Of a stretch of 64,000 nucleotides of DNA, positions 22,002-61,597 are shown piece after piece. The stretch is taken from the NCBI GenBank assembly GCA_002774875.1, contig PCYM01000001.1:1096-65095 (forward strand). Direction: 5' to 3'. How positions within the stretch are numbered: the stretch's first letter is position 1; each line of letters begins with the position of its first letter. The notes under the pieces were generated by a model. The model saw only the letters and a program-made list of their open reading frames with translations, was not told the DNA's origin and did not search any database. The DNA is from Candidatus Uhrbacteria bacterium CG10_big_fil_rev_8_21_14_0_10_50_16. GTDB taxonomy: Bacteria; Patescibacteriota; Patescibacteriia; UBA9934; UBA11717. Position numbers and translations under genes: made by a program.

Positions 22002-22118
22002 AGATGTGTGCCAATTGTGGCGATTCATGTTGAATCTTCAATTGGCTACACGGCTTCGCTCTACAGAAGGGCTTCGTTTATGCCAAGGTCTGTACGGCGT
22101 ACTCGTGGGGACACGCTG
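22002..22118. repeat. structured repeat element, copy 2 (followed by a GC-rich small ORF)
   Basis: It has the same architecture as copy 1, but both 6-nt palindromes changed concordantly (CGATCG to CAATTG) and the third pairing segment co-varies (GCCGGGG to GCCAAGG). Confidence 0.5.
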
Positions 22119-22187
22119 AGGGACGACTACAACACCGGGGACCCCGATTCCGTCCGCGTGCGCTTTACGTACGCCGGACGTGCCTAT

Positions 22188-22409
22188 CGGATGTGGAGTC
22201 TCCCGGGTAGGCTCTCCGTTTGGGAGGGGAAGGGCACTTACACGGACACGGGACCTACCGGCTGCATCAACTCCGCCGTGTCCGACGTGGGTGTCATGAA
22301 GTGGCTAGATCACGAGGAGCCGGATGAAATCCCGGAGACCCAGCCGGAGTGGCAGGTTCGCTGCAAGGTGGCGATCGAGAGCCTGGCCGCCGTCCTCGGC
22401 GTCCGCTGA
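22188..22409 (+). CDS. possible small GC-rich cargo ORF downstream of repeat copy 2
   Basis: This is the C-terminal part of track ORF 21900..22409, from MWSLPGRLSVWEGKG onward. It is about 63% GC in a 50% GC background, and a terminator-like hairpin follows at about 22425-22460. The start is uncertain. Confidence 0.25.
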   Translation, partial: RMWSLPGRLSVWEGKGTYTDTGPTGCINSAVSDVGVMKWLDHEEPDEIPETQPEWQVRCKVAIESLAAVLGVR

Positions 22410-29872: not shown

Positions 29873-31414
29873 ATGTTTGAAATTGTGACTGATTTTTCGT
29901 CTTTGCAACGCATGGCGGTGACGCGGCCCGACGTGCTACTTTTGTATATCCTGATGCCAATTGGCGCGTTACTTATTTTAACGACGATTGTATGGGTGAT
30001 TAAGCAATTGTATTTGGATAAAAAAGGAGGAGAATACGCCGCCGGACTTAAGTGGTCTGTTTTGGCAATCGACATTCCAATGAACATGCAGTCGCCAAAA
30101 GCGGTGGAAAACATCTTTGCGATTGTTAAGGGAACAAAGTCCGTGGTTACAAAGAAAGAGGAGTGGCTGCATGGGAAATTTCTCACGGCGACAAGTTTTG
30201 AAATCGTGAGTATCGATGGCTATACACAATTCTTTTTGCGCACGCAGGCGCGGTTCCGTGATCATTTGGAAGCCGGAATTTACTCGCAATATCCGGAGGC
30301 GGAGATTTCCGAGGTGGAGGATTATACAAAGAATATTCCAGGTGATTTTCCAAACGAGACACATGAAATGTTTGGAGGGGAGATTATTTTGGAGGAGCCG
30401 AGCTATTTGCCGATTCGTACTTACGAAGATTTTGAGCACATGGCGAGCAAGGATGAAAAACTCAAGGATCCACTCAATCAAATGTTTGAGTTCATGGGAA
30501 AGTTGCGACCAGGAGAGCAGTTCTGGGTTCATCTGATTGTGCACCCAGGTGGCGACGGCGGGTGGTCTAAAAAGGGAGAAGATTTTATTTTAAAAACCTA
30601 TGGACGAGATAAGCCGGAAGCGGTCTCCACGGGCTCTGTATTGTTAAAGTTGTTGTTCTCGCCATTTGGTTGGATCATCAAAGAAGCGGCAACACAACTA
30701 GGCGCAGGCGTTTTTGAAGCGGGAGAGGCTGCAAAGCCTGAACGTCCAATGTTTTTTGTGCCGACGAACACAGAAAAAACCCAGCTTGATGGTGTGACCA
30801 AAAAACTCGCAAAACCAGGGTATGAATGTAAGATTCGTTGGGCCTATGTGTCACGGCACGAGACGTACAATAAGGGTGGTCGTAACACGCTTTGGAAAGG
30901 GTACCTCGCATTGTTTACGCATCCAGCGATGAATAAGTTTAAATACGATGCAGACACCATGCCACGTGACGATTATTTTTGGATGATTTGGGAGTATCGA
31001 CGTAAGCAACGAGAACTCATGGAAGCCCTAAAGGGTCGTAGCTGGGGTCATGGAAGTACGCCAATGTATTTGAATGTGGAGGAATTAGCGACCCTGTGGC
31101 ACTTCCCAACAATCGAATCACATGCACCTCTTATGGCGCGTACGGAGTCTAAACGATCCGAGGCGCCAACCTATTTGCCAAAACCTGGCGTTGGGGAATC
31201 GGAAGATTTGCCATCTGAGGAGTTGATCGAGGTTGATGAGCAAGGAAGACCCGTTGCAAGACCTGTTGATGTCGGCGCAATTTACAATAACGATCTTGCG
31301 GATATTTTGCCCACCGAGCCCATGATTGAACCTGGAGATGAGAATCAACCTCGCGACACGGATGAGACCTATGGAGAGGAGCAACCGTTTATCCCGCCCA
31401 ACCTTCCTGTGTAA
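29873..31414 (+). CDS. hypothetical protein with a single N-terminal TM anchor and a large soluble domain of unknown function
   Basis: The hydrophobic segment is LLLYILMPIGALLILTTIVWVI. The roughly 470 aa soluble part carries no motif I recognise, and its C-terminus is acidic. The gene lies 33 nt upstream of the T4CP-like ATPase on the same strand. Confidence 0.5.
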   Translation: MFEIVTDFSSLQRMAVTRPDVLLLYILMPIGALLILTTIVWVIKQLYLDKKGGEYAAGLKWSVLAIDIPMNMQSPKAVENIFAIVKGTKSVVTKKEEWLHGKFLTATSFEIVSIDGYTQFFLRTQARFRDHLEAGIYSQYPEAEISEVEDYTKNIPGDFPNETHEMFGGEIILEEPSYLPIRTYEDFEHMASKDEKLKDPLNQMFEFMGKLRPGEQFWVHLIVHPGGDGGWSKKGEDFILKTYGRDKPEAVSTGSVLLKLLFSPFGWIIKEAATQLGAGVFEAGEAAKPERPMFFVPTNTEKTQLDGVTKKLAKPGYECKIRWAYVSRHETYNKGGRNTLWKGYLALFTHPAMNKFKYDADTMPRDDYFWMIWEYRRKQRELMEALKGRSWGHGSTPMYLNVEELATLWHFPTIESHAPLMARTESKRSEAPTYLPKPGVGESEDLPSEELIEVDEQGRPVARPVDVGAIYNNDLADILPTEPMIEPGDENQPRDTDETYGEEQPFIPPNLPV

Positions 31415-31447
31415 TTATTGACCGCACGTCCTTAACCGTCTACCTCT

Positions 31448-33535
31448 ATGGCTCGTATCCACGACCATGAAAATGAAATCACCTACTTCGCTAAAACCAA
31501 CTTTCGACAAGGTGGTCAGAAGTTTGGGATTAAAACGGACGATCGACGCCGGCACATGTATATTGTTGGAAAAACCGGTGCTGGTAAAACAACACTTTTG
31601 GAGAACATGGTGTTGCAAGACATTTATAACGGGCACGGGATTTGCTATGTGGATCCGCATGGAGATACGGTGGAGCGTATTCTTGATTTTATTCCAAGCT
31701 GGCGTTTGAATGATGTTGTGTACTTTAACCCGGCGGATTTGGATTTTCCGGTTGGGTTTAACGTGTTAGATGAAGTGTCTGGAAGCCACAAACATCTTGT
31801 CGCCTCTGGTTTGATGAGTGTGTTTAAGAAGATTTGGGAGAACATGTGGTCGGCTCGTATGGAGTATATTCTGGGCAATACGATTTTAGCCTTGTTGGAT
31901 ACCCCAGGCTCTACGTTGTTGGGTATTAACCGTATGTATTCCGATCCGGACTATCGAAGGTCCATTATTGAAAATATCAAGGACCCTGTGGTCAAACAGT
32001 TCTGGGTCATGGAGTATGCGGCATATTCAGAGAAATTTGCAACAGAGGCGGTGGCGGCCGTGCAAAACAAGGTAGGTCAGTTTTTGTCGTCCGACGTGAT
32101 TCGCAATATCGTTGCACAGGTTAAATCGACGATTGACGTGCGAGAAATCATGGATTCGCAGAAAATTTTGCTGGTCAACTTGTCTAAGGGGCGTATTGGA
32201 GAGGATAATTCGCGTTTGCTTGGCGGAATGTTGATCAATAAGGTACAGCTAGCGGCCATGGAACGTGTGGACATGCCAGAGAAAGATCGAAAAGATTTCT
32301 ATTTGTACGTAGATGAGTTTCAAAACTTTGCAACGGAATCATTCGCCGGAATTTTGTCCGAGGCGCGTAAATATCGACTCAATCTAATCGTCGCACACCA
32401 ATATATTGCACAGTTAACGGAGGAGGTACGAGATGCCGTGTTGGGTAACGTTGGCACGATGACGGTGTTTCGTGTGGGTGCACCAGACGCGCAGGAGCTA
32501 GAGACAGAATTCATGCCACGATTTACGCCGGAGGATATTATTAACCTGCCAAAATACCAAGTGTATTTAAAATTGATGATCGACGGAATGGCGTCTCCTC
32601 CATTCTCTGCGACCACGCTTCCGCCGATCGCACAGAATACGGGATCAGAAGCAAAAGTTATACGGATGAGTCGTGAGCGTTATTCGGCTGATCGGTCTGA
32701 GGTGGAGGCTGGTGTGATTAAATGGACTGGTTTGGAGGATGCAGATATTGATCAACTCATGGACCAGGCAAAGGCAAAAGGGTCCGGAAATCAGGCGAAG
32801 GTCAAACATAAATACAAATGTTCTTGGACAGGAAAAGAGTTTTCGATTCCAGTGAAGTTGGATCGCGGACGGCCAATTTACAGTGAGGAAGGAAAAGAGA
32901 TGGTGCGAGCGGCCAAGAAGGACGGTACATACGATCCTCGCAAGGATATTATTTACAGTGATACTCTGGAGCCCATCGGATCGGTTGCAGAATTGGGAAC
33001 GGATGGTTTGTGGGCGGTACGCAATGAGGAAGGGGACATTATTGGTCGCAAAGATGAGGATAGTACAAAACGCGATCGTAGGGCGGCTAAGGAGACCGAA
33101 AAACAGGAGTTAGAAGTAAAACTTGCTAAGGCGCGTGAGGAAATGAAGGAGTCTGGAGCACCAGCGGCGAGTGTAGAGGTAGCACCGACTCCAAAACCTG
33201 CAAACGTAGAGTCTCCAAAAGTGGAGCGTCCTGCACCGCGCCTACAGGAAGAGGTAAAGTCTGTCGTTGGGGCCTCGTTGAATGTTCTCAAGCAAGAAGG
33301 TGAGCGGCGTGAGGGCGAGAAGCGTAAACGCAGAAGGAAAAAGCCAACACAAGATGGAGGAGGCGATCGTGGAGGTTCTCGATCACGTTCCAATCCATCG
33401 AGGTCGACAGACACACCCAGAGATCAGCAACCCGTCATACGACAGCCGGCTGCAGATGTTCAACCAAAAACAGAGCCAGATACAAAGGCAAGGCCTATTA
33501 AACCTGGTGAGATGATCACGTTTGGGGAGGAATAA
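31448..33535 (+). CDS. type IV coupling protein (VirD4/TraG/TraD)-like P-loop ATPase, lacking a TM anchor, with a long KE/RGG-rich low-complexity tail
   Basis: It has Walker A (YIVGKTGAGKTT), a DEF-type Walker B (FYLYVDEFQNFAT), and a conserved LIVAHQYIAQL block as in T4CP NTP-binding domains. The C-terminal 260 aa are Lys/Glu/Arg/Gly-rich. Confidence 0.6.
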   Translation: MARIHDHENEITYFAKTNFRQGGQKFGIKTDDRRRHMYIVGKTGAGKTTLLENMVLQDIYNGHGICYVDPHGDTVERILDFIPSWRLNDVVYFNPADLDFPVGFNVLDEVSGSHKHLVASGLMSVFKKIWENMWSARMEYILGNTILALLDTPGSTLLGINRMYSDPDYRRSIIENIKDPVVKQFWVMEYAAYSEKFATEAVAAVQNKVGQFLSSDVIRNIVAQVKSTIDVREIMDSQKILLVNLSKGRIGEDNSRLLGGMLINKVQLAAMERVDMPEKDRKDFYLYVDEFQNFATESFAGILSEARKYRLNLIVAHQYIAQLTEEVRDAVLGNVGTMTVFRVGAPDAQELETEFMPRFTPEDIINLPKYQVYLKLMIDGMASPPFSATTLPPIAQNTGSEAKVIRMSRERYSADRSEVEAGVIKWTGLEDADIDQLMDQAKAKGSGNQAKVKHKYKCSWTGKEFSIPVKLDRGRPIYSEEGKEMVRAAKKDGTYDPRKDIIYSDTLEPIGSVAELGTDGLWAVRNEEGDIIGRKDEDSTKRDRRAAKETEKQELEVKLAKAREEMKESGAPAASVEVAPTPKPANVESPKVERPAPRLQEEVKSVVGASLNVLKQEGERREGEKRKRRRKKPTQDGGGDRGGSRSRSNPSRSTDTPRDQQPVIRQPAADVQPKTEPDTKARPIKPGEMITFGEE

Positions 33536-41708: not shown

Positions 41709-42200
41709 ATGGAAAAACCATCAGGAATCACATTAGTGGAGGGCCTCATTATTGGAGGGATCTTCTGTATTTTGTTGTTTGCAACAGGAATCTCGTTGTC
41801 GGCGGCGCGTGAGCGTGTGCGTGATTATAAGCGTATTTCCGATGTTTCGCGCGTACAGGCGGCATTGGAGCTGTACTACAATGAACAAAATCAGTATCCA
41901 AAGACGGAAGGGAAGATTGCTCTTGGAAACGGTGGGGCGCTCTGTTTGAGTAGCTCTGGGTTCCAGCCAACGTGCTCGTCTACGGGTCGTGTGTTTTTAA
42001 ATCCTGTGCCAAGTCAGACGGGCATCGGGTTGGGGGGATCGGACTTGCAGGTCTATGCGTATGAGAGTGATGGAGAGAATTACGTGATTTCTTTGGTGAT
42101 CGAGCGGGCGATTCCTCAGGTGGCTATTGAGAAAGGGTTGGTGTGCGCGCGTCCTGGGTCGCCTATTCAGGCGTCGGCAAGCGGCGTGTGCGCGCTTTAG
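41709..42200 (+). CDS. type IV pilin / pseudopilin (prepilin-type N-terminal methylation domain)
   Basis: It has a class III signal (MEKPSG-ITLVEGLIIGGIF) with Glu at +5, and two Cys near the C-terminus. Confidence 0.7.
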   Translation: MEKPSGITLVEGLIIGGIFCILLFATGISLSAARERVRDYKRISDVSRVQAALELYYNEQNQYPKTEGKIALGNGGALCLSSSGFQPTCSSTGRVFLNPVPSQTGIGLGGSDLQVYAYESDGENYVISLVIERAIPQVAIEKGLVCARPGSPIQASASGVCAL

Positions 42201-42204
42201 GCAA

Positions 42205-42232
42205 TTTGTGCTCAACTGATCGTAAGAGACAG
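42205..42232 (+). terminator. rho-independent terminator after the pilin gene
   Basis: The sequence is ACAGGC-TTGAC-AGGCCTGTTTTTTT. Confidence 0.5.
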
Positions 42233-42428
42233 GCTTGACAGGCCTGTTTTTTTGTTGTATGTTTGGTGGGCGACAATCCGTTGCACGAGGAGACTGGCAT
42301 GGCCCTGAACCCCTACACGCCGCCCCCCAAGGTGGACGGCCCCGAGTCGCGCGCGAGCGTGCGCGACTACCCTCGTCCTCGTCACGGGCAGGTCCTCGAC
42401 CTGCCCGTGGAGGTTCCCTCCAACGGGG

Positions 42429-43721
42429 GTGAGCTCAAGCCGGCGACGGCCTGAGCTCGCTCTACCCCCCCACGCGGTCTTCGGGCTGCACTTCTACGAC
42501 CGGCGCCTGGAACCTCAGGACGCCGGCCTCGTACGTTCATGCGCAACGCAGAAAGAGCGGAAGATGAAGTCGGACATTGCAGATGTAAACTTGCAGAAGT
42601 TGTATGAGGCACTGGAAGCAGCGCTGAGAAACGCGGGTGTTGCAGACAAGATTTCCGTGGCAACGTCGTTGAGGGCGTTTGTGGATACTGTGGACGAATT
42701 GGCGGTCGAGCGTGGCCAGTTACTTGCTGCGCTGGAGCACGCCACCACCGATTCGGTTACGGGACTGCTGAGATCTGACCAATGGCGTCAGCAACTCGCC
42801 ATGGCGCTCAGGCAGGCATTGGGAGAAGCGGCGATCGTGCCCATCCTCGATGGTATGTTCCCGCTTGCGGCGGCCCGGATGGTGGGGTTAAAGGATGTGG
42901 TCAGAAGTGTCGTCCTTGCGACGTTTGACGTTCGTGCGTTGGACTATACCAACGCGCTGCTAGGCTATGCCGCGGGCAGCGAGATGCTGACGCTGTGTGC
43001 ACAGACGGCGGCGACGGTGTTGGACGAGTTCCTCTCCTCCTACGGGATGCAGCGGAGAACCAGTGTTCGCGACCCTCTGTGGCTGTGTTCACTCACACGG
43101 ACCGGCGGCGATGAATTCCGTGCGGTCTTGGTTGGTCAGGCGGCCACGCGTTGGCGCGACGTGCGCGACGGACTGTTCATGCGTCTGAGCGAGGAAGAAG
43201 TGCCGGGGCTCGACATCCCGCCCGCGATGGCATCCGGTGCCATGTCCATGCACGTCTTGCTCTGGTACGTGGGCGCGTTCTATCGGTGGCGGGGCCTGTC
43301 TCTGCCCACCGACAGGGAGGAGATCATCACGCTCGCCATTCAACTGTGGTGTGCCTTCACGGAGGCGCGCGCAGATGCACAGCGGGTGGTGGAATACGGT
43401 CTCCTGTTTGCCGATGCGTGGGACGATGACCCTGTAAAGCGCGAGCGGTTCGATCGGTGGATGTCCACCAAGTTGATGGCCTCGGCCTTCAATGGACGAA
43501 CTCTGGATGAGGTGCACAACCTGTGCCGAAGCGCGTCCATGTGTCTGAAGGCAGACGACACCAAGGGTGCCAAGGCGGTGTTCGTGCACGATCACGATGA
43601 TCGTATGCGTGTTCACTTCAACATCCTCCTGGCCAAGGCGCGGGCGCTGCAAGAAGAAAACATCCGTCTCCGGCTCGAGATCTTCGTGATCTCCAATGAG
43701 TTCGAGTTTCCTATCCCCTAA
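42429..43721 (+). CDS. GGDEF-domain protein (putative diguanylate cyclase) with an uncharacterised C-terminal extension of about 180 aa, on a GC-rich segment
   Basis: D-SVTGLLRSDQWRQQL matches the D.LTGL.NR entry motif of GGDEF domains. FDVRALDYTNALLGYAAGSEML corresponds to the D.D.FK..ND..GH..GD block, and LTRTGGDEFRAVLVG is an intact GGDEF active site. The segment 42230-43720 is about 60-70% GC against a local background of about 50%. The start is uncertain; ATG 42564 (MKSDIADV) is an alternative. Confidence 0.6.
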   Translation: MSSSRRRPELALPPHAVFGLHFYDRRLEPQDAGLVRSCATQKERKMKSDIADVNLQKLYEALEAALRNAGVADKISVATSLRAFVDTVDELAVERGQLLAALEHATTDSVTGLLRSDQWRQQLAMALRQALGEAAIVPILDGMFPLAAARMVGLKDVVRSVVLATFDVRALDYTNALLGYAAGSEMLTLCAQTAATVLDEFLSSYGMQRRTSVRDPLWLCSLTRTGGDEFRAVLVGQAATRWRDVRDGLFMRLSEEEVPGLDIPPAMASGAMSMHVLLWYVGAFYRWRGLSLPTDREEIITLAIQLWCAFTEARADAQRVVEYGLLFADAWDDDPVKRERFDRWMSTKLMASAFNGRTLDEVHNLCRSASMCLKADDTKGAKAVFVHDHDDRMRVHFNILLAKARALQEENIRLRLEIFVISNEFEFPIP

Positions 43722-43810
43722 GGGGAATCAACGTCGAGGGGCTCCGGCCCCTCATTCATTTTGTTAAAAAGCGTCTATCCTAACCGCTCAAACTTTGCTA
43801 AACTACCCCT

Positions 43811-46614
<2,804 letters not shown>

Positions 46615-50470: not shown

Positions 50471-50558
50471 GGAGAGGTCGCATAGTGGCCTAGTGCGCCA
50501 TCTTGGAAAGGTGGTATACCGCAAGGTATCGGGGGTTCGAATCCCCCCCTCTCCGCCA
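50471..50558 (+). tRNA. tRNA-Ser (anticodon GGA)
   Basis: The cloverleaf folds by hand. The acceptor is GGAGAGG/CCTCTCC, the anticodon stem CCATC/GGTGG with loop TTGGAAA, and the long variable arm ATACC-GCAA-GGTAT. The T arm is GGGGG-TTCGAAT-CCCCC, and CCA is encoded. Confidence 0.85.
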
Positions 50559-50567
50559 ACCAAAAGA

Positions 50568-50592
50568 ACGAGCTTGCCTCGTTTTTTTGGTT
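50568..50592 (+). terminator. rho-independent terminator after tRNA-Ser
   Basis: The sequence is ACGAG-CTTGC-CTCGTTTTTTTGG. Confidence 0.5.
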
Positions 50593-50944
50593 GGTGAGGG
50601 GTAAGAGCGTATGCCCTGCGGCATGCGCGACGGGTTCAGACGGTCAAAGACAATCGCCGCTTGTTGACGGACATATTGGCTAACGTTCAAAACTTGTAAG
50701 AATAAACGGAACAAAGTGAAGTGAGTGAACCTCATAGTCCTTGTTGTACGATGTATATTTTTTTCTTTTTTCTGCGATAGCAAAACTGCTTTTCAATAAT
50801 AAATGCAAATTGGATTTGTTTTGGCGAGCACACGAGGAGAACTAAAGAGGTGAATTGTGCGAGTCAAAACTCCTTATAAAGAACGGATGGTGAAAAGCTT
50901 GATTGGTTTGGTTCTTTGTGTTTATATTGCATCTAATCTGCAAT

Positions 50945-51901
50945 ATGAAGATTGATTTAACATATCACCCTGATTATGCTGAATTGACGAGTGGTTTTAA
51001 AGCTCTTCGAGAGATTTTTTCTGATCACTATCGGGTTGATTCCGGTTTAGTTATTCCTACAAATGGTGCAACAGGAGCATTGGACGCCGTGTTTTCGTGT
51101 ACATTGGCTCATGCTGATGGAAAACCAACTGATGCATTGGTTTCTTCCATGGAATATTTCGATGCTGTGAGGATGTTGAAGTTATATGGTTTTGGATTGA
51201 GATCCGTTCCTTCTGATGGCATAAATTACCCGACTGATAAAGTTGTCGAAGCGTTAAGAAGAAATGCACCGAGTTTATTTTATTTATCTGTGCCCAATAA
51301 TCCTTCAGGCCGAGTATTATCTGAGGCTGATTTAGGCCAAATATTGGAGGCTGTGTCAGATAAAACCAGAGTTCTTATAGATATCACTTTAATTGGTACC
51401 CCTTCTCACTGTTTACCGAGAGAACTATTAAATAAACATGATGATAGAATAGATATAGTTGTTGTTGATTCTTTGTCAAAAAAGCGAGGACTGGTAAGAG
51501 ATCGTGGCTGGGCTATTGTAGCTCTGAGAAAAAGTACTGCTGATCGAATACATCCATTTGCTCATGCCACAAACCTACATGGTATGCAAACAGCAATAGC
51601 TCGCATGAATGATGTGACCGCTGAAAGCGAGACGCATGAAAAAATTAGAACATCGCAAAAAATTTTAGATGCCTGGAGCAATGATTTTGCAGTTTATCAT
51701 CCATCTAATTCCAATTTTGCTTGTATAGAGCTTCTGACAACAACAGGTTCTGACTGCAAGCAACGATTAGAGCAAAGAGGTATTAAATTGCGGGCAGGGG
51801 CAGATCTTTATATTGATGATAAATATATTAGGATCGATATGGAACAGCCGAAAGTTCTGCAAGATTTTTTGTCTGCTTTAGATAATATTTTGGTTCAGTA
51901 G
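50945..51901 (+). CDS. class I/II aminotransferase-like PLP enzyme (HisC-like fold), on an AT-rich segment
   Basis: VPNNPSGRV and the Lys-containing DSLSKKRGL motif match fold-type I aminotransferases. It is about 40% GC, well below the local background. Confidence 0.55.
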   Translation: MKIDLTYHPDYAELTSGFKALREIFSDHYRVDSGLVIPTNGATGALDAVFSCTLAHADGKPTDALVSSMEYFDAVRMLKLYGFGLRSVPSDGINYPTDKVVEALRRNAPSLFYLSVPNNPSGRVLSEADLGQILEAVSDKTRVLIDITLIGTPSHCLPRELLNKHDDRIDIVVVDSLSKKRGLVRDRGWAIVALRKSTADRIHPFAHATNLHGMQTAIARMNDVTAESETHEKIRTSQKILDAWSNDFAVYHPSNSNFACIELLTTTGSDCKQRLEQRGIKLRAGADLYIDDKYIRIDMEQPKVLQDFLSALDNILVQ

Positions 51902-52081
51902 TTTTCCCCTCTATCAAAAAAGAAAATGCAATTTGCATTTTATTGTAAAACAAAGGACTTTGCCCGTAAAAGGAAAAGTATACTTCATTTACCGTGTGCG
52001 AGTATACGATGTTTGCGTAGCAAATATTGGTGAAGCGTAGCGGAACTGCATACACGCAATTGTGTGATGGCGCGGAAATTT

Positions 52082-52345
52082 TTATCCATTTTTTTCGTAT
52101 TTTATTTTTACTACCAACTGAGCAAGTGTCACTAAAAAATTAAACCCATCCCCAAGTAGCACCGGGAGGCTATTTATCATATAACCATAAATTGCCCAAA
52201 GGCCGGTAGCAAAAAAATAGATAACAATCATGAAGAACGAAACATCCTTTACGCTTTTTGTTGTAATGGACTTGATAAATTGAGGAACCATGTGAATGGC
52301 TCCAAGCAGCGCTGCCGAGAATCCTACTATTTCTATTGTTGACAT
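52082..52345 (-). CDS. SemiSWEET / PQ-loop family sugar transporter (3-TM)
   Basis: This 87 aa protein has three hydrophobic helices and a PQ motif in helix 1 (HMVPQFIKSITTKS). It is colinear with known bacterial SemiSWEETs. Confidence 0.65.
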   Translation of the reverse strand: MSTIEIVGFSAALLGAIHMVPQFIKSITTKSVKDVSFFMIVIYFFATGLWAIYGYMINSLPVLLGDGFNFLVTLAQLVVKIKYEKNG

Positions 52346-52585
52346 AGTTTTACATTCTTGAAACCAAGAACCAAAAATTAAAATTAATTTGGCGATATTT
52401 TGCTACCGCAAAATTAAAAAACTTTTCATTACATCGCACAACGTGCCGCGGCACGTTAGCCAACGAGCAAAGCGATGTTGGCTAACATTCCAACATATAC
52501 AATATCTAAACAGGGTAAAATGTACACGAAGTGCTTACCACTGGCAAACATGGGTGGAGGCATGCGGAGGTACGGAGCAAGCCGT

Positions 52586-61084: not shown

Positions 61085-61597
61085 TTAGTCGTCATCCTCG
61101 TTGTATGTGTTGCTCACCGGCATCAACATGAAGCTCTCGAGCCGCGAGAGCTCTTCGTAGGAAGCCTCATCGGTGGGCCACTCCGGATCTTCCTTGCCGG
61201 TACGCAGCCACCGGCTGAGAGTGTGTTCAAGATGGTACAGCATCATGCGCTCACCATCGCCCTTGCAGTTGTACAGGTACCACCGCCAGCCGGTGCTAAA
61301 GACGGACAGAAGCTCCTGCATCTCCAGCAGCCAGTTCATCAGCCGGGTGATGGCCAGGTGGCGCGAAGCGATGTTGTCGTCCAGATCCTGCGCGAGCGAC
61401 TCGACGATGAAATCCGGGGCGTTGCCCTCGCCGGTGATCGTGGGGGTGAAGTCCCACGTGCCCTCGGCGAGCTCGCGCCTCGGGTTGAGAGGCGTGAGCC
61501 GAACGTAGAGATGACTCTCACCTTCCACCAGACCGGCGAAGGCGCTCTTGTCGGGATTGCCGAGCGTGATGACTCGACCACTTTCGATGGCGCTCAT
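61085..61597 (-). CDS. hypothetical acidic protein (GC-rich cargo gene)
   Basis: This 170 aa ORF is about 60% GC. GGAGGTG lies 4 nt upstream of the ATG, and a conserved terminator sits 10 nt after the stop. Plus-strand ORFs over the same DNA look like low-complexity antisense frames. Confidence 0.4.
   Translation of the reverse strand: MSAIESGRVITLGNPDKSAFAGLVEGESHLYVRLTPLNPRRELAEGTWDFTPTITGEGNAPDFIVESLAQDLDDNIASRHLAITRLMNWLLEMQELLSVFSTGWRWYLYNCKGDGERMMLYHLEHTLSRWLRTGKEDPEWPTDEASYEELSRLESFMLMPVSNTYNEDDD

What the first reader, a model, noticed from the sequence alone, without database searches (positions are those of the whole stretch)
42230..43721. GC-rich GGDEF (diguanylate cyclase-like) gene inserted inside a type IV pilus locus
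The pilus-related genes are, in order, pilM (39793), a translationally coupled unknown ORF, a CheY-like receiver, a pilin (41709), a prepilin peptidase (43811) and a second pilin (55300). Between the pilin and the peptidase lies a 1.5 kb segment of about 60-70% GC, against about 50% elsewhere. It encodes a protein with a complete GGDEF domain (D.VTGLLR entry motif, FD..ALDYTNALLGYAAGSEML block, and an intact RTGGDEF site) plus about 180 aa of unknown C-terminal sequence. c-di-GMP control of type IV pili is established in other bacteria. Here the composition indicates a horizontally acquired regulator wired into the pilus operon. The upstream 42235-42560 is even more GC-rich and contains a short ORF (42263..42454) of unknown status.
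Basis: partly seen in the sequence, partly recalled or inferred. Interest (0 to 1): 0.6.

Follow-up and report, generated by a model that had tools for sequence, protein, structure and literature searches.

The report
Divergent GGDEF cassette beside pilin gene
A GC-rich two-gene cassette, a tiny ORF plus a highly divergent GGDEF-type nucleotide cyclase with a new helical tail, sits between the pilin and prepilin-peptidase genes of one sub-clade of Uhrbacteria; it is an old, retained insertion, not a recent foreign gene.

Summary
Window 42.2-43.75 kb is 59-64% GC against 49% overall, and it encodes a 385-aa protein (true start ATG 42564) with an intact GGDEF motif. Pfam's GGDEF model does not hit this protein. 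A profile of its 7-member family hits solved diguanylate cyclases, and an AlphaFold model (pLDDT 88.7) matches only GGDEF structures. Residues 229-385 form a helical domain with no structural match.

The gene, a preceding 51-aa ORF, a leader with covarying hairpins and an invariant TTGACA promoter box form an autonomous cassette. That cassette lies at the same site in eight divergent Uhrbacteria lineages, which form a clade. Three sequenced lineages that fall outside that clade, and a fourth, more distant one seen only as a gene list, have pilin directly followed by peptidase. This points to one ancient gain.

Synonymous sites are saturated even between the closest pair. Yet third-position GC stays 0.13-0.27 above that of flanking genes in every lineage, so GC-richness is maintained and is not a relic of transfer. 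The cassette has its own promoter and terminators, so it is not co-transcribed with the pilus genes. Catalytic Asp, Asn and Asp-Glu residues are conserved in 7 of 8 lineages. The base-specificity residue is Ser, as in Hypr GGDEF enzymes, and there is no I-site. Enzyme activity and any link to pili remain inferred.

The parts
41709..42200 (+). Type IV pilin-like gene (163 aa), the left flank of the cassette
   Evidence: The N-terminus SG|ITLVEGLI is a prepilin-type leader. There are weak GspG/ComGC profile hits. It is 72-92% identical among the X+ lineages. It is present in both X+ and X- lineages.
42224..42252 (+). Terminator-like hairpin with a T-run after the pilin gene. Its loop and 3' arm carry the -35 box of the cassette promoter.
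   Evidence: Scan. The hairpin-plus-T-run layout recurs in all 8 X+ loci in alignment A9.
42235..42263 (+). Sigma-70-type promoter-like site: TTGACA, 17 nt, TATGTT
   Evidence: 10 of 12 matches. TTGACA, and the T, A and final T of the -10 element, are invariant columns across 8 lineages (A9). The X- locus L016 has a terminator without TTGACA.
42299..42454 (+). Small ORF (51 aa, basic, rich in Pro and Arg), the first cistron of the cassette
   Evidence: GAGGAG lies 6 nt upstream. An ORF of 44-58 codons with a GGAG-type Shine-Dalgarno sequence sits at the same place in all 8 X+ loci. There is a weak shared motif (M.IP.L..PRVD...RASVR...KPAA). Some pipelines call it as a gene (P0049). GC by codon position is 0.75/0.55/0.86.
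42440..42563 (+). Structured spacer between the small ORF and X. It has a hairpin around the small-ORF stop codon, hairpin P1 (42474-42489, UUCG loop) and GC-rich hairpin P2 (42499-42528), then a conserved YUUCGUACAUYCA tract and a weak Shine-Dalgarno sequence.
   Evidence: RNAalifold gives 9 of 18 pairs with compensatory changes. For P1 and P2, 8 of 15 pairs have changes on both sides. Shuffles reached the observed covariation score, the paired fraction and the count of pairs with double changes in 0 of 500 cases, and slid controls score much lower. The hairpins recur in single-sequence folds of all 8 loci. There is no Rfam family. P2 is unique in the window. Model R1 finds the leader only in X+ loci.
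42564..42749 (+). X residues 1-62: N-terminal helical hairpin (stalk)
   Evidence: The AF2 model has helices 8-23 and 29-61. They align with the coiled-coil stalks of WspR and DgcB in HMMER and Foldseek hits.
42750..43247 (+). X residues 63-228: divergent GGDEF (diguanylate-cyclase-fold) domain. GGDEF is at 43104-43118. It has D122, N130, S139, D183 and E184.
   Evidence: The family profile hits DosC at 2e-6 and other cyclases. The top 50 Foldseek PDB hits are all GGDEF-domain structures, nearly all named diguanylate cyclases, at E down to 1.7e-7 and probability 1.0. D122, N130, D183 and E184 are invariant in 7 family members. Pfam PF00990 gives no hit on X but 1e-10 on the distant relative P0008.
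43248..43721 (+). X residues 229-385 plus the stop codon: all-helical C-terminal domain with no recognisable relatives
   Evidence: A separate AF2 model has pLDDT 90.4 and 7 helices. The best Foldseek hits are E=1.3 in PDB and E=0.7 in BFVD, with TM below 0.33. The only stretch of the degenerate orthologue P0009 that the family profile matches is 187-318, which lies mostly in this domain.
43736..43753 (+). Terminator-like hairpin GAGGGGC-TCCG-GCCCCTC with a T-rich tail, the right end of the cassette
   Evidence: L006 has an analogous hairpin after X (sequence printed).
43811..44584 (+). Prepilin peptidase (A24) gene, the right flank
   Evidence: PF01478 and PF06750. In X- lineages it follows the pilin gene after 4-60 nt.

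Best explanation
The segment is an autonomous two-gene cassette. In order it contains a promoter, a 5' hairpin, a 51-aa small ORF, a structured spacer, the 385-aa protein X and a terminator.

It was inserted once between the pilin terminator and the prepilin-peptidase promoter, in the ancestor of one sub-clade of Candidatus Uhrbacteria. It has been kept there since, with at least one exchange of alleles between lineages.

X is a cytoplasmic protein with three parts: a helical stalk, a very divergent GGDEF domain and a novel helical domain. It most likely still works as a dimeric cyclic-dinucleotide synthase. The metal-binding Asp, the base-contacting Asn and the Asp-Glu of GGDEF are kept while the rest of the protein evolves about 2-5 times faster than its neighbours. 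The base-specificity position is Ser in this genome (Asn or Asp in other lineages), the signature of promiscuous Hypr GGDEFs. The product may therefore not be c-di-GMP alone. There is no product-inhibition I-site.

The small ORF and the leader hairpins probably set how much X is made. The elevated GC is a maintained property of the cassette. The most likely cause is GC-biased gene conversion at a recombining locus, or else selection at the RNA level.

Shown: anatomy, fold, residue conservation, distribution, composition and mosaicism. Inferred: enzymatic activity, the product, the role of the small ORF and leader, any effect on pili, and the cause of the GC excess.
For: Identity and rarity:
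- X is 100% identical to hypothetical protein COV06_00200 of a Candidatus Uhrbacteria MAG. Only 3 relatives turned up among 5.8 billion clusters, and 7 hits among 1.84 billion representatives.

Fold:
- The family profile without P0008 hits DosC at 2e-6, and most of the other 27 listed hits (E up to 10) are also diguanylate cyclases.
- AF2 gives pLDDT 88.7 and pTM 0.82.
- The top 50 Foldseek hits are all GGDEF-domain structures.
- There is a transitive link to Pfam GGDEF: P0008 at 1e-10, P0007 at 2e-4.

Active site:
- D122, N130, R179, D183 and E184 are invariant in 7 members.
- N130 and S139 are 9 residues apart and combine with GGDEF. This mirrors GacA Asn339/Ser348/GGDEF, where the Ser/GGDEF pairing is the active, promiscuous combination (PMC6456294).

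Distribution:
- The cassette is at the same site in the window, L001-4, L005, L006, L009, L010 and L011-12. In L008 it sits directly next to ligA.
- The site is empty in L016, L017, L018/19 and a JGI contig.
- X+ lineages form a clade in flanking-gene NJ trees.

Autonomy:
- Terminators lie on both sides, with a promoter-like site.
- TTGACA is invariant in 8 lineages.

Small ORF and leader.

Rate and composition:
- dN is 0.30 for X against 0.06-0.22 for neighbours. dS is 1.2-2 or uncomputable, that is, saturated.
- GC3 of X exceeds flanking genes by 0.13-0.27 in all 8 lineages.
- The L21 and pilin genes have GC3 of 0.55-0.56, so codon selection for high expression does not explain the excess.

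Mosaicism:
- The L005 X allele groups with the window and L001 (54-59%), while its flanks group with L009 (77-83%). The switch occurs at the cassette edges.
Against: - Pfam, NCBIfam, PHROGs and PADLOC give no hit on X itself.
- No sequence match extends past strand beta4. The canonical C-terminal 'AD.ALY.AK..GRN' helix, with its phosphate-binding Lys and Arg, was not found. Catalysis would therefore need substitute basic residues. K303, R165 and R312 are conserved, but their positions relative to the active site were not checked.
- The GGDEF motif is altered in some orthologues (GGDEL, GDRSDEF, GRGDEM) and lost in L006/P0009. The C-terminal domain, not catalysis, may be the constant function.
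- No PilZ, EAL or HD-GYP domain, no PilB ATPase and no cyclic-dinucleotide riboswitch was seen in the 64 kb.
- The GC explanation is untested.
- The mosaic signal rests on one 3.4-kb contig.
- The gain-versus-loss inference rests on NJ trees of 2-4 short proteins from 10 loci.
Confidence: 0.6

Rival explanations
1. X is a pseudo-enzyme. On this view it is a GGDEF-fold scaffold or nucleotide receptor that no longer synthesises anything. It would act through its conserved C-terminal helical domain by binding a partner, for example a pilus-assembly component, in the way degenerate GGDEF-EAL proteins such as FimX act on type IV pili.
For: - It is invisible to Pfam.
- The canonical C-terminal phosphate-binding helix was not detected.
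- There are two insertions in the domain: extra helices at 89-110, and about 18 aa before the GGDEF hairpin.
- It has the fastest dN in the locus.
- The motif is degenerate in P0005 and P0007 and lost in P0009. P0009 still keeps an intact ORF and the C-terminal domain at the same site.
Against: - The metal-binding Asp, the base-contacting Asn, the Arg before the motif and the Asp-Glu of the motif are invariant in 7 of 8 lineages, against only 31-62% overall identity.
- The Ser/GGDEF pairing is the active combination in Hypr enzymes.
- An N-terminal stalk suitable for the dimerisation that catalysis needs is retained.
Confidence: 0.22
2. The cassette is a conflict or defence-type module, or a selfish two-gene module, that merely lodges next to the pilin gene. 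It would consist of a fast-evolving micro-protein and a nucleotide-signal synthase, exchanged between strains, and would have nothing to do with routine pilus regulation.
For: - It is a two-gene unit with its own promoter and terminators, inserted into an otherwise fixed housekeeping gene order.
- X has the highest dN in the locus, about 1.3-5 times its neighbours', and 21-62% pairwise identity among the X+ lineages; the small ORF is similarly divergent.
- The specificity residue varies between lineages: Ser, Asn or Asp.
- Allele history is incongruent with the flanks.
- In L008 the cassette persists without the peptidase gene.
- The distant homologue P0008 lies in an unrelated context.
Against: - There are no PADLOC, PHROG, IMG/VR or phage-genome hits.
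- There is no effector-like gene in the cassette.
- There are no flanking repeats, integrase or transposase.
- It stays at one chromosomal site in all eight lineages, which is unusual for mobile defence islands.
Confidence: 0.13
3. This is the first reader's reading: a recently acquired foreign gene from a GC-rich donor whose composition has not yet ameliorated.
For: - GC is 0.60 against 0.49, and fourfold-site GC is 4.7 sd above the reference genes.
- Arg/(Arg+Lys) is 0.77 against 0.53.
- The site is empty in outgroup lineages.
Against: - The same cassette is at the same site in 8 lineages that form a clade.
- Synonymous sites are saturated between even the closest pair, yet the GC3 excess is the same in all of them.
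- No donor-like relative exists among 1.84 billion representatives. The nearest outsider, P0008, sits in a 52% GC contig.
Confidence: 0.04

Closest known systems
Stand-alone stalk-GGDEF diguanylate cyclases (the WspR GGDEF module, Caulobacter DgcB, E. coli DosC GGDEF; Pfam PF00990)
   Same: - The same palm-like fold, with a preceding helical stalk.
- The DxxTGL entry motif, the metal-binding Asp in strand 1, the base-contacting Asn, and the R.GGDEF hairpin.
   Different: - No hit to PF00990.
- Two insertions in the domain.
- Ser instead of Asp at the guanine Watson-Crick contact.
- No RxxD I-site.
- The final helix and strand, with the conserved Lys and Arg, are not recognisable. They are replaced or followed by a 157-aa helical domain with no structural match.
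- No sensory input domain.
Hypr GGDEF enzymes (Geobacter GacA, Bdellovibrio Bd0367) that make 3',3'-cGAMP
   Same: - Ser at the position of GacA Ser348, 9 residues after the conserved Asn, combined with GGDEF rather than GGEEF. This is the combination described as active and able to accept ATP as well as GTP (PMC6456294).
- The GacA structure 6d9m is among the fold hits.
   Different: - GacA has a receiver domain and an I-site region; X has neither.
- Other Hypr signature and cross-dimer residues were not examined.
- Orthologues of X have Asn or Asp at this position.
- No cGAMP riboswitch was found nearby.
- Activity is untested.
c-di-GMP control of type IV pili in other bacteria (FimX, MshE/PilB N-terminal domains, PilZ; recalled from general knowledge, not tested here)
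   Same: A GGDEF-family protein is encoded within a pilus gene cluster, next to the pilin and prepilin-peptidase genes and downstream of pilM and a CheY-like receiver.
   Different: - No receptor or effector (PilZ, MshEN-type ATPase, EAL, HD-GYP) was found in the 64 kb.
- The cassette is transcriptionally separate from the pilus genes.
- The pilus cluster is complete and conserved in relatives that lack X.

Membership tests
GGDEF domain family (PF00990, diguanylate cyclase) | Significant match to the curated family profile | tested here: not met
   No PF00990 hit for X at E<=1, and none for P0002-P0005. P0006 scores 0.019 and P0007 scores 2e-4 (21.6 bits, below the 23.8 cut-off). Only the distant relative P0008 passes (42 bits).
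GGDEF domain family (PF00990, diguanylate cyclase) | GGDEF/palm-like fold | tested here: met
   AF2 pLDDT is 88.7. The top 50 Foldseek PDB hits are all GGDEF-domain structures, at E from 1.7e-7 to 1.6e-4 and probability 1.0. The family profile (without P0008) hits DosC at 2e-6.
GGDEF domain family (PF00990, diguanylate cyclase) | GG[D/E]EF active-site hairpin and the metal-binding Asp of strand 1 | tested here: met
   G181-G182-D183-E184-F185 are encoded at 43104-43118. D122 aligns to the first Asp of the WspR 'IDVD' motif. D122, D183 and E184 are invariant in 7 members.
GGDEF domain family (PF00990, diguanylate cyclase) | Guanine-specific contacts (Asn plus Asp, PleD N335/D344 equivalents) | tested here: not met
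   Asn is present (N130, invariant). The Asp position is S139 in the window, L001 and L005; Asn in P0004 and P0006; and Asp in P0005, P0007 and P0008.
GGDEF domain family (PF00990, diguanylate cyclase) | C-terminal helix with phosphate-binding Lys and Arg (PleD K442/R446; numbering recalled from the literature) | tested here: inconclusive
   No sequence alignment to any cyclase extends beyond residue 229. The Pfam match of P0008 stops at profile position 133 of 161. Residue-level structural superposition was not available.
GGDEF domain family (PF00990, diguanylate cyclase) | Allosteric I-site (RxxD five residues before GGDEF; optional in the family) | tested here: not met
   The sequence before the motif is VRDPLWLCSLTRT-GGDEF. 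No orthologue has RxxD at that register.
GGDEF domain family (PF00990, diguanylate cyclase) | Cyclic-dinucleotide synthase activity | not testable with these tools
   This needs an enzyme assay.
Hypr GGDEF subfamily | Ser at the Watson-Crick contact position combined with GGDEF (not GGEEF) | tested here: met
   S139 lies 9 residues after N130, and the motif is GGDEF. The criterion is taken from PMC6456294. It is necessary but not sufficient: D-to-S mutants of canonical enzymes are mostly inactive (same paper).
Hypr GGDEF subfamily | Production of cGAMP | not testable with these tools
   This needs LC-MS of the reaction products.
Recently transferred genomic island | Presence in this genome but absence from close relatives, with foreign composition and mobility genes or repeats | tested here: not met
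   It is present at the same site in 8 lineages. There are no flanking repeats and no integrase or transposase. dS is saturated while the GC3 excess persists. Only an ancient gain is supported.
Type IV pilus operon member (co-transcribed regulator) | Co-transcription or translational coupling with pilus genes | tested here: not met
   There are terminator-like hairpins on both sides, and a promoter-like site of its own with an invariant -35 box. This rests on sequence inference only; no transcript data were used.
Known cyclic-dinucleotide riboswitches or other Rfam leaders | Match to an Rfam covariance model in the cassette leader | tested here: not met
   There is no hit at gathering threshold in the window. 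In 42150-42650 the only hit is a chance-level sbcD match at E=2.8.

The most novel reading that the evidence does not exclude
The cassette is a previously unrecognised signalling module of Uhrbacteria, in which three things hold. First, a Pfam-invisible, Hypr-like GGDEF enzyme makes cGAMP or another non-c-di-GMP dinucleotide. Second, it is controlled by its co-encoded basic micro-protein and a novel structured leader RNA. Third, it acts through its new helical domain on the adjacent pilus machinery, or as a guard of the pilus, which is the phage- and host-contact organelle. Its persistent GC excess and allele exchange would mark it as a recombination hot spot under diversifying selection.
Probability: 0.12. 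Interest if true: 0.75.

Novelty: new variant of a known kind. Interest (0 to 1): 0.45.

Why it matters
Candidate Phyla Radiation bacteria have tiny genomes and depend on type IV pili for DNA uptake and host contact, yet almost nothing is known about how they signal.

This is a GGDEF-fold protein that standard annotation misses: it is labelled 'hypothetical' and has no Pfam hit. It has been retained at one spot in the pilus cluster of a whole sub-clade. It combines catalytic residues, a Hypr-type specificity residue and a domain with no structural match. It gives a concrete, cloneable candidate for cyclic-dinucleotide signalling in this group.

The case also carries a methodological caution. 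A GC-rich island in a mid-GC genome was a reasonable cue for horizontal transfer. Comparative data show instead that the composition is actively maintained over saturating divergence. That makes the locus a small natural test case for biased gene conversion versus selection on GC content.

Tried and rejected
Searches that found nothing:
- Direct profile scans of X and the small ORF against Pfam, NCBIfam, PHROGs and PADLOC gave nothing significant.
- A phage or viral origin was tested with tblastn against 50,697 phage genomes and a pattern scan of IMG/VR. Neither gave a hit.
- BFVD gave no fold match for the C-terminal domain.
- Rfam scans of the window and of the leader found only two tRNAs, elsewhere in the window.

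Ideas considered and rejected:
- An overlapping antisense gene as the reason for the GC constraint. Long antisense open frames exist in every orthologue, but their extents differ, as expected for GC3-rich coding sequence.
- A REP-like dispersed repeat as the source of the leader hairpins. The P2 pattern occurs once in 64 kb, and the covariance model hits only X+ loci.
- Target-site duplications or terminal inverted repeats around the cassette. None were found.
- Codon selection for high expression as the cause of high GC3. The L21 and pilin genes have GC3 of 0.55-0.56.
- A consistent helix that masks the Shine-Dalgarno sequence of X by pairing with the small-ORF stop region. It appears in the window's minimum-free-energy fold but not consistently in the other seven. 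The leader's folding energy is also not unusual for its composition (z = -0.6).

Technical limits:
- The search for more relatives in GTDB genomes returned only 2 loci. The JGI metagenome scan returned none, because the patterns were too specific.
- dN/dS could not be used because dS is saturated.
Full report
**What is in the sequence.** The window comes from a Candidatus Uhrbacteria (CPR/Patescibacteria) metagenome-assembled genome. The protein encoded at 42564-43721 is 100% identical to 'hypothetical protein COV06_00200' on a 330-kb contig.

Sliding windows give GC 0.59-0.63 for 42001-43500, against 0.49 for the whole 64 kb. The ORF listed mechanically (42429, GTG, 430 aa) over-extends. Public annotation and all orthologues start at ATG 42564 (385 aa).

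X has GC3 of 0.72, against a mean of 0.50 (sd 0.08) over 54 ORFs. Its fourfold-site GC is 0.74 against 0.53 (sd 0.045), and its Arg/(Arg+Lys) is 0.77 against 0.53. The neighbours are as described: PilM, an unknown 114-aa ORF, a CheY-like receiver, a pilin-like gene and a prepilin peptidase.

**Is it a GGDEF protein?** Direct profile searches fail. There is no PF00990 hit at E<=1, and nothing in NCBIfam, PHROGs or PADLOC.

The family is extremely small. A word-indexed search of 5.8 billion clusters found 3 proteins. An exhaustive HMMER search of 1.84 billion representatives with the family profile found 7. Three lines of evidence nevertheless establish the fold:
- The most distant relative, P0008, matches PF00990 at 1e-10, and P0007 scores 2e-4.
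- A profile of the seven closer members, excluding P0008, hits solved diguanylate cyclases (DosC at 2e-6). Most of the other hits listed, at E up to 10, are also cyclases.
- An AlphaFold2 model (pLDDT 88.7, pTM 0.82) gives 72 Foldseek PDB hits at E<=0.001. The top 50 are all GGDEF-domain structures, including WspR, DgcB, PleD, DosC and the Hypr enzyme GacA.

The alignments place D122 on the metal-binding Asp and N130 on the base-contacting Asn. S139 falls on the Asp that normally reads the guanine Watson-Crick face, and R179-x-GGDEF falls on the active-site hairpin. D122, N130, R179, D183 and E184 are invariant in seven members that are otherwise only 31-62% identical to X.

There is no RxxD I-site. 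No alignment extends beyond residue 229, so the canonical last helix, with its phosphate-binding Lys and Arg, is not recognisable.

Residues 229-385 fold confidently on their own (pLDDT 90.4, seven helices). They have no structural match in PDB or BFVD (best E 1.3 and 0.7). Residues 1-62 form a helical hairpin that aligns with cyclase stalks.

**The Ser139 detail.** In Geobacter GacA, Ser348 lies nine residues after Asn339 and is combined with GGDEF rather than GGEEF. That combination is the signature allowing ATP as well as GTP to be used, giving cGAMP. The Ser/GGEEF combination is inactive (PMC6456294, read). X has exactly N130, S139 and GGDEF. Orthologues carry Ser (3), Asn (2) or Asp (2, plus P0008) at this position. 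This is a lead, not a demonstration. The same paper reports that D-to-S mutants of canonical enzymes are mostly dead.

**Distribution: an old insertion, not a recent one.** Every family member except P0008 lies at the same chromosomal place. The order is recJ, RNase H, pilM, orf114, receiver, pilin, small ORF, X, prepilin peptidase, ligA, gatC, gatA. This was seen in:
- L001-L004 (X 62% identical),
- L005 (54%),
- L009 (38%),
- L010 (35%),
- L011/L012 (33%),
- the marine TARA contig L006 (27%),
- L008 (41%), where X is followed directly by ligA.

Flanking proteins in these lineages are 50-92% identical to those of the window.

Four related lineages have the same gene order but with pilin followed by peptidase after 4-60 nt:
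- L016, labelled Uhrbacteria, peptidase 53% identical,
- L017, Uhrbacteria RIFCSPLOWO2_01_FULL_53_9, 56%,
- L018/L019, 57%,
- a 617-kb JGI contig, 39%.

In neighbour-joining trees of the flanking proteins, the X-bearing lineages form one clade and the three X-less lineages with sequence in hand (L016-L018) fall outside it. A single gain in the ancestor of that sub-clade is the simplest reading. The trees are small, so this is an inference.

**The composition argument does not hold.** Between the window and its closest relative, L001, third-codon-position identity is 0.42-0.55. Nei-Gojobori dS is 1.2-2.0 or uncomputable for every gene in the locus. Synonymous sites have therefore turned over completely even in the closest pair.

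Yet GC3 of X exceeds that of its flanking genes by 0.13-0.27 in all eight lineages, whatever the local background (0.49-0.59 locus GC). A foreign signature would have decayed, so the excess is being maintained. Codon selection for high expression is unlikely, because the L21 and pilin genes have GC3 of 0.55-0.56. A conserved antisense gene is also unlikely.

X has the highest dN in the locus: 0.30, against 0.06-0.22 for the other genes.

One lineage is mosaic. The X allele of L005 groups with the window and L001 (54-59% amino-acid identity; 60-71% nucleotide identity). Its pilin and peptidase group with L009 (77-83% amino-acid identity). The switch lies at the cassette edges. Distances to outgroups are equal for L005 and L009, so this is not a rate artefact.

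Recombination with GC-biased gene conversion would explain both the GC excess and the mosaic. That remains a hypothesis.

X is not the only GC-rich ORF in the window. Two shorter orphan ORFs (22083-22409 and 61085-61597) show the same codon and Arg-over-Lys shift.

**An autonomous cassette.**
- The pilin gene ends in a hairpin plus T-run (42224-42252). Its loop carries TTGACA, followed 17 nt later by TATGTT.
- In an alignment of the eight lineages, TTGACA and the T, A and final T of the -10 element are invariant. A small covarying hairpin (GCGAC...GUYGC) and a GGAG-type Shine-Dalgarno sequence follow.
- The X-less locus L016 has a terminator without TTGACA, followed directly by a promoter-like TAAAAT before the peptidase gene.
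- Next comes a small ORF of 44-58 codons (42299-42454 here). It is basic and Pro/Arg-rich, with weak shared motifs at both ends. Some gene callers record it.
- The 110-nt spacer before X contains a hairpin around the small-ORF stop codon and two further hairpins, P1 (42474-42489) and P2 (42499-42528). In P1 and P2, 8 of 15 pairs show changes on both sides. Shuffles reached the observed covariation score, the paired fraction and the count of pairs with double changes in 0 of 500 cases, and slid-register controls are far lower.
- P2 is a 9-11-bp GC-rich stem followed by a U-containing tract, so it could act as an attenuator. This is inferred.
- There is no Rfam family. The pattern is unique in the window. 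A covariance model finds it only in X-bearing loci.
- A terminator-like hairpin follows X (43736-43753).
- No flanking repeats or mobility genes were found.

**Function.** The most likely reading is that X is a dimeric cyclic-dinucleotide synthase that has diverged beyond the reach of Pfam, with output set by the small ORF and leader. The preservation of catalytic residues against a background of rapid change supports this.

The main rival is a pseudo-enzyme acting through the C-terminal domain. Three things favour it: the missing C-terminal nucleotide-binding helix, the altered motifs in two lineages, and complete loss in L006. In L006 the ORF and the C-terminal domain are still kept.

A role in pilus control rests only on position. 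No PilZ, EAL, HD-GYP or PilB-type gene was found among the roughly 50 window ORFs scanned. The pilus cluster is intact in relatives without X. A conflict-type module is a further possibility, given the two-gene organisation, fast evolution and allele exchange. There is no match to known defence or phage families.

Diguanylate cyclase genes have been reported in ultra-small groundwater bacteria in general (PMC9938205). Full-text searches found no description of this family or this arrangement.

Noticed in passing
window 22083-22409 (+) and 61085-61597 (-): Two further GC-rich orphan ORFs (108 and 170 aa; fourfold-site GC 0.75 and 0.83; Arg/(Arg+Lys) about 0.8; no Pfam hit). They show the same compositional shift as X. 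The first is annotated as hypothetical protein COV06_00110 and lies just upstream of secA. GC-rich orphan genes may be a recurring class in this genome.
   Followed up: partly
window 50471-52500: An AT-rich island (GC 0.38, GC3 0.28) holds a class I/II aminotransferase gene (50903-51901) immediately after a tRNA gene (50471-50555). By composition and position it is a better candidate for recent transfer than X.
   Followed up: no
L005 1-3414 compared with L001, window, L009: Mosaic locus. The X allele groups with the window and L001, while the pilin 3' end and the peptidase group with L009. The switch lies near the cassette edges, which suggests allelic replacement of the cassette between lineages.
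   Followed up: partly
window 42224-42298 and alignment A9 of eight loci: The -35 box TTGACA of the cassette promoter sits inside the loop and 3' arm of the pilin terminator hairpin and is invariant in eight lineages. A small covarying 5' hairpin (GCGAC..GUYGC) follows the -10 element.
   Followed up: partly
L008 1-5396: In this lineage X is followed directly by ligA, with no prepilin peptidase gene between them. The cassette therefore persists without its usual right-hand neighbour.
   Followed up: no
L006 8001-9167 (protein P0009): The marine (TARA) orthologue has lost the metal-binding Asp, the Asn and the GGDEF motif, but it keeps an intact ORF and the C-terminal domain. Its small ORF is acidic rather than basic.
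   Followed up: partly
L001, L002/L004, L003 (upstream of RNase H): Contigs that carry the identical X protein P0002 have three different gene contexts upstream of the RNase H gene: protein kinases, mnmA-lepA-recJ, or tRNA synthetases with bactofilin. These are either real rearrangements or assembly chimeras.
   Followed up: no
window 29873-33535: A VirD4/TrwB-like coupling-protein gene (31448-33535) follows an unknown 513-aa ORF, embedded among housekeeping genes (secDF, mnmA).
   Followed up: no
L015 (CAZWSS010000053.1): A contig labelled 'uncultured Gammaproteobacteria bacterium' encodes a PilM that is 69% identical to the Uhrbacteria PilM. It is probably a mis-binned CPR contig.
   Followed up: no
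L013 365-1438 (protein P0008): This is the only family relative outside the pilus locus. It passes Pfam GGDEF, shares part of the C-terminal region, is preceded by an unrelated 52-aa ORF, and lies next to yebC and ruvC in a 52% GC contig of unknown taxon. It may be close to the source lineage of the cassette.
   Followed up: partly
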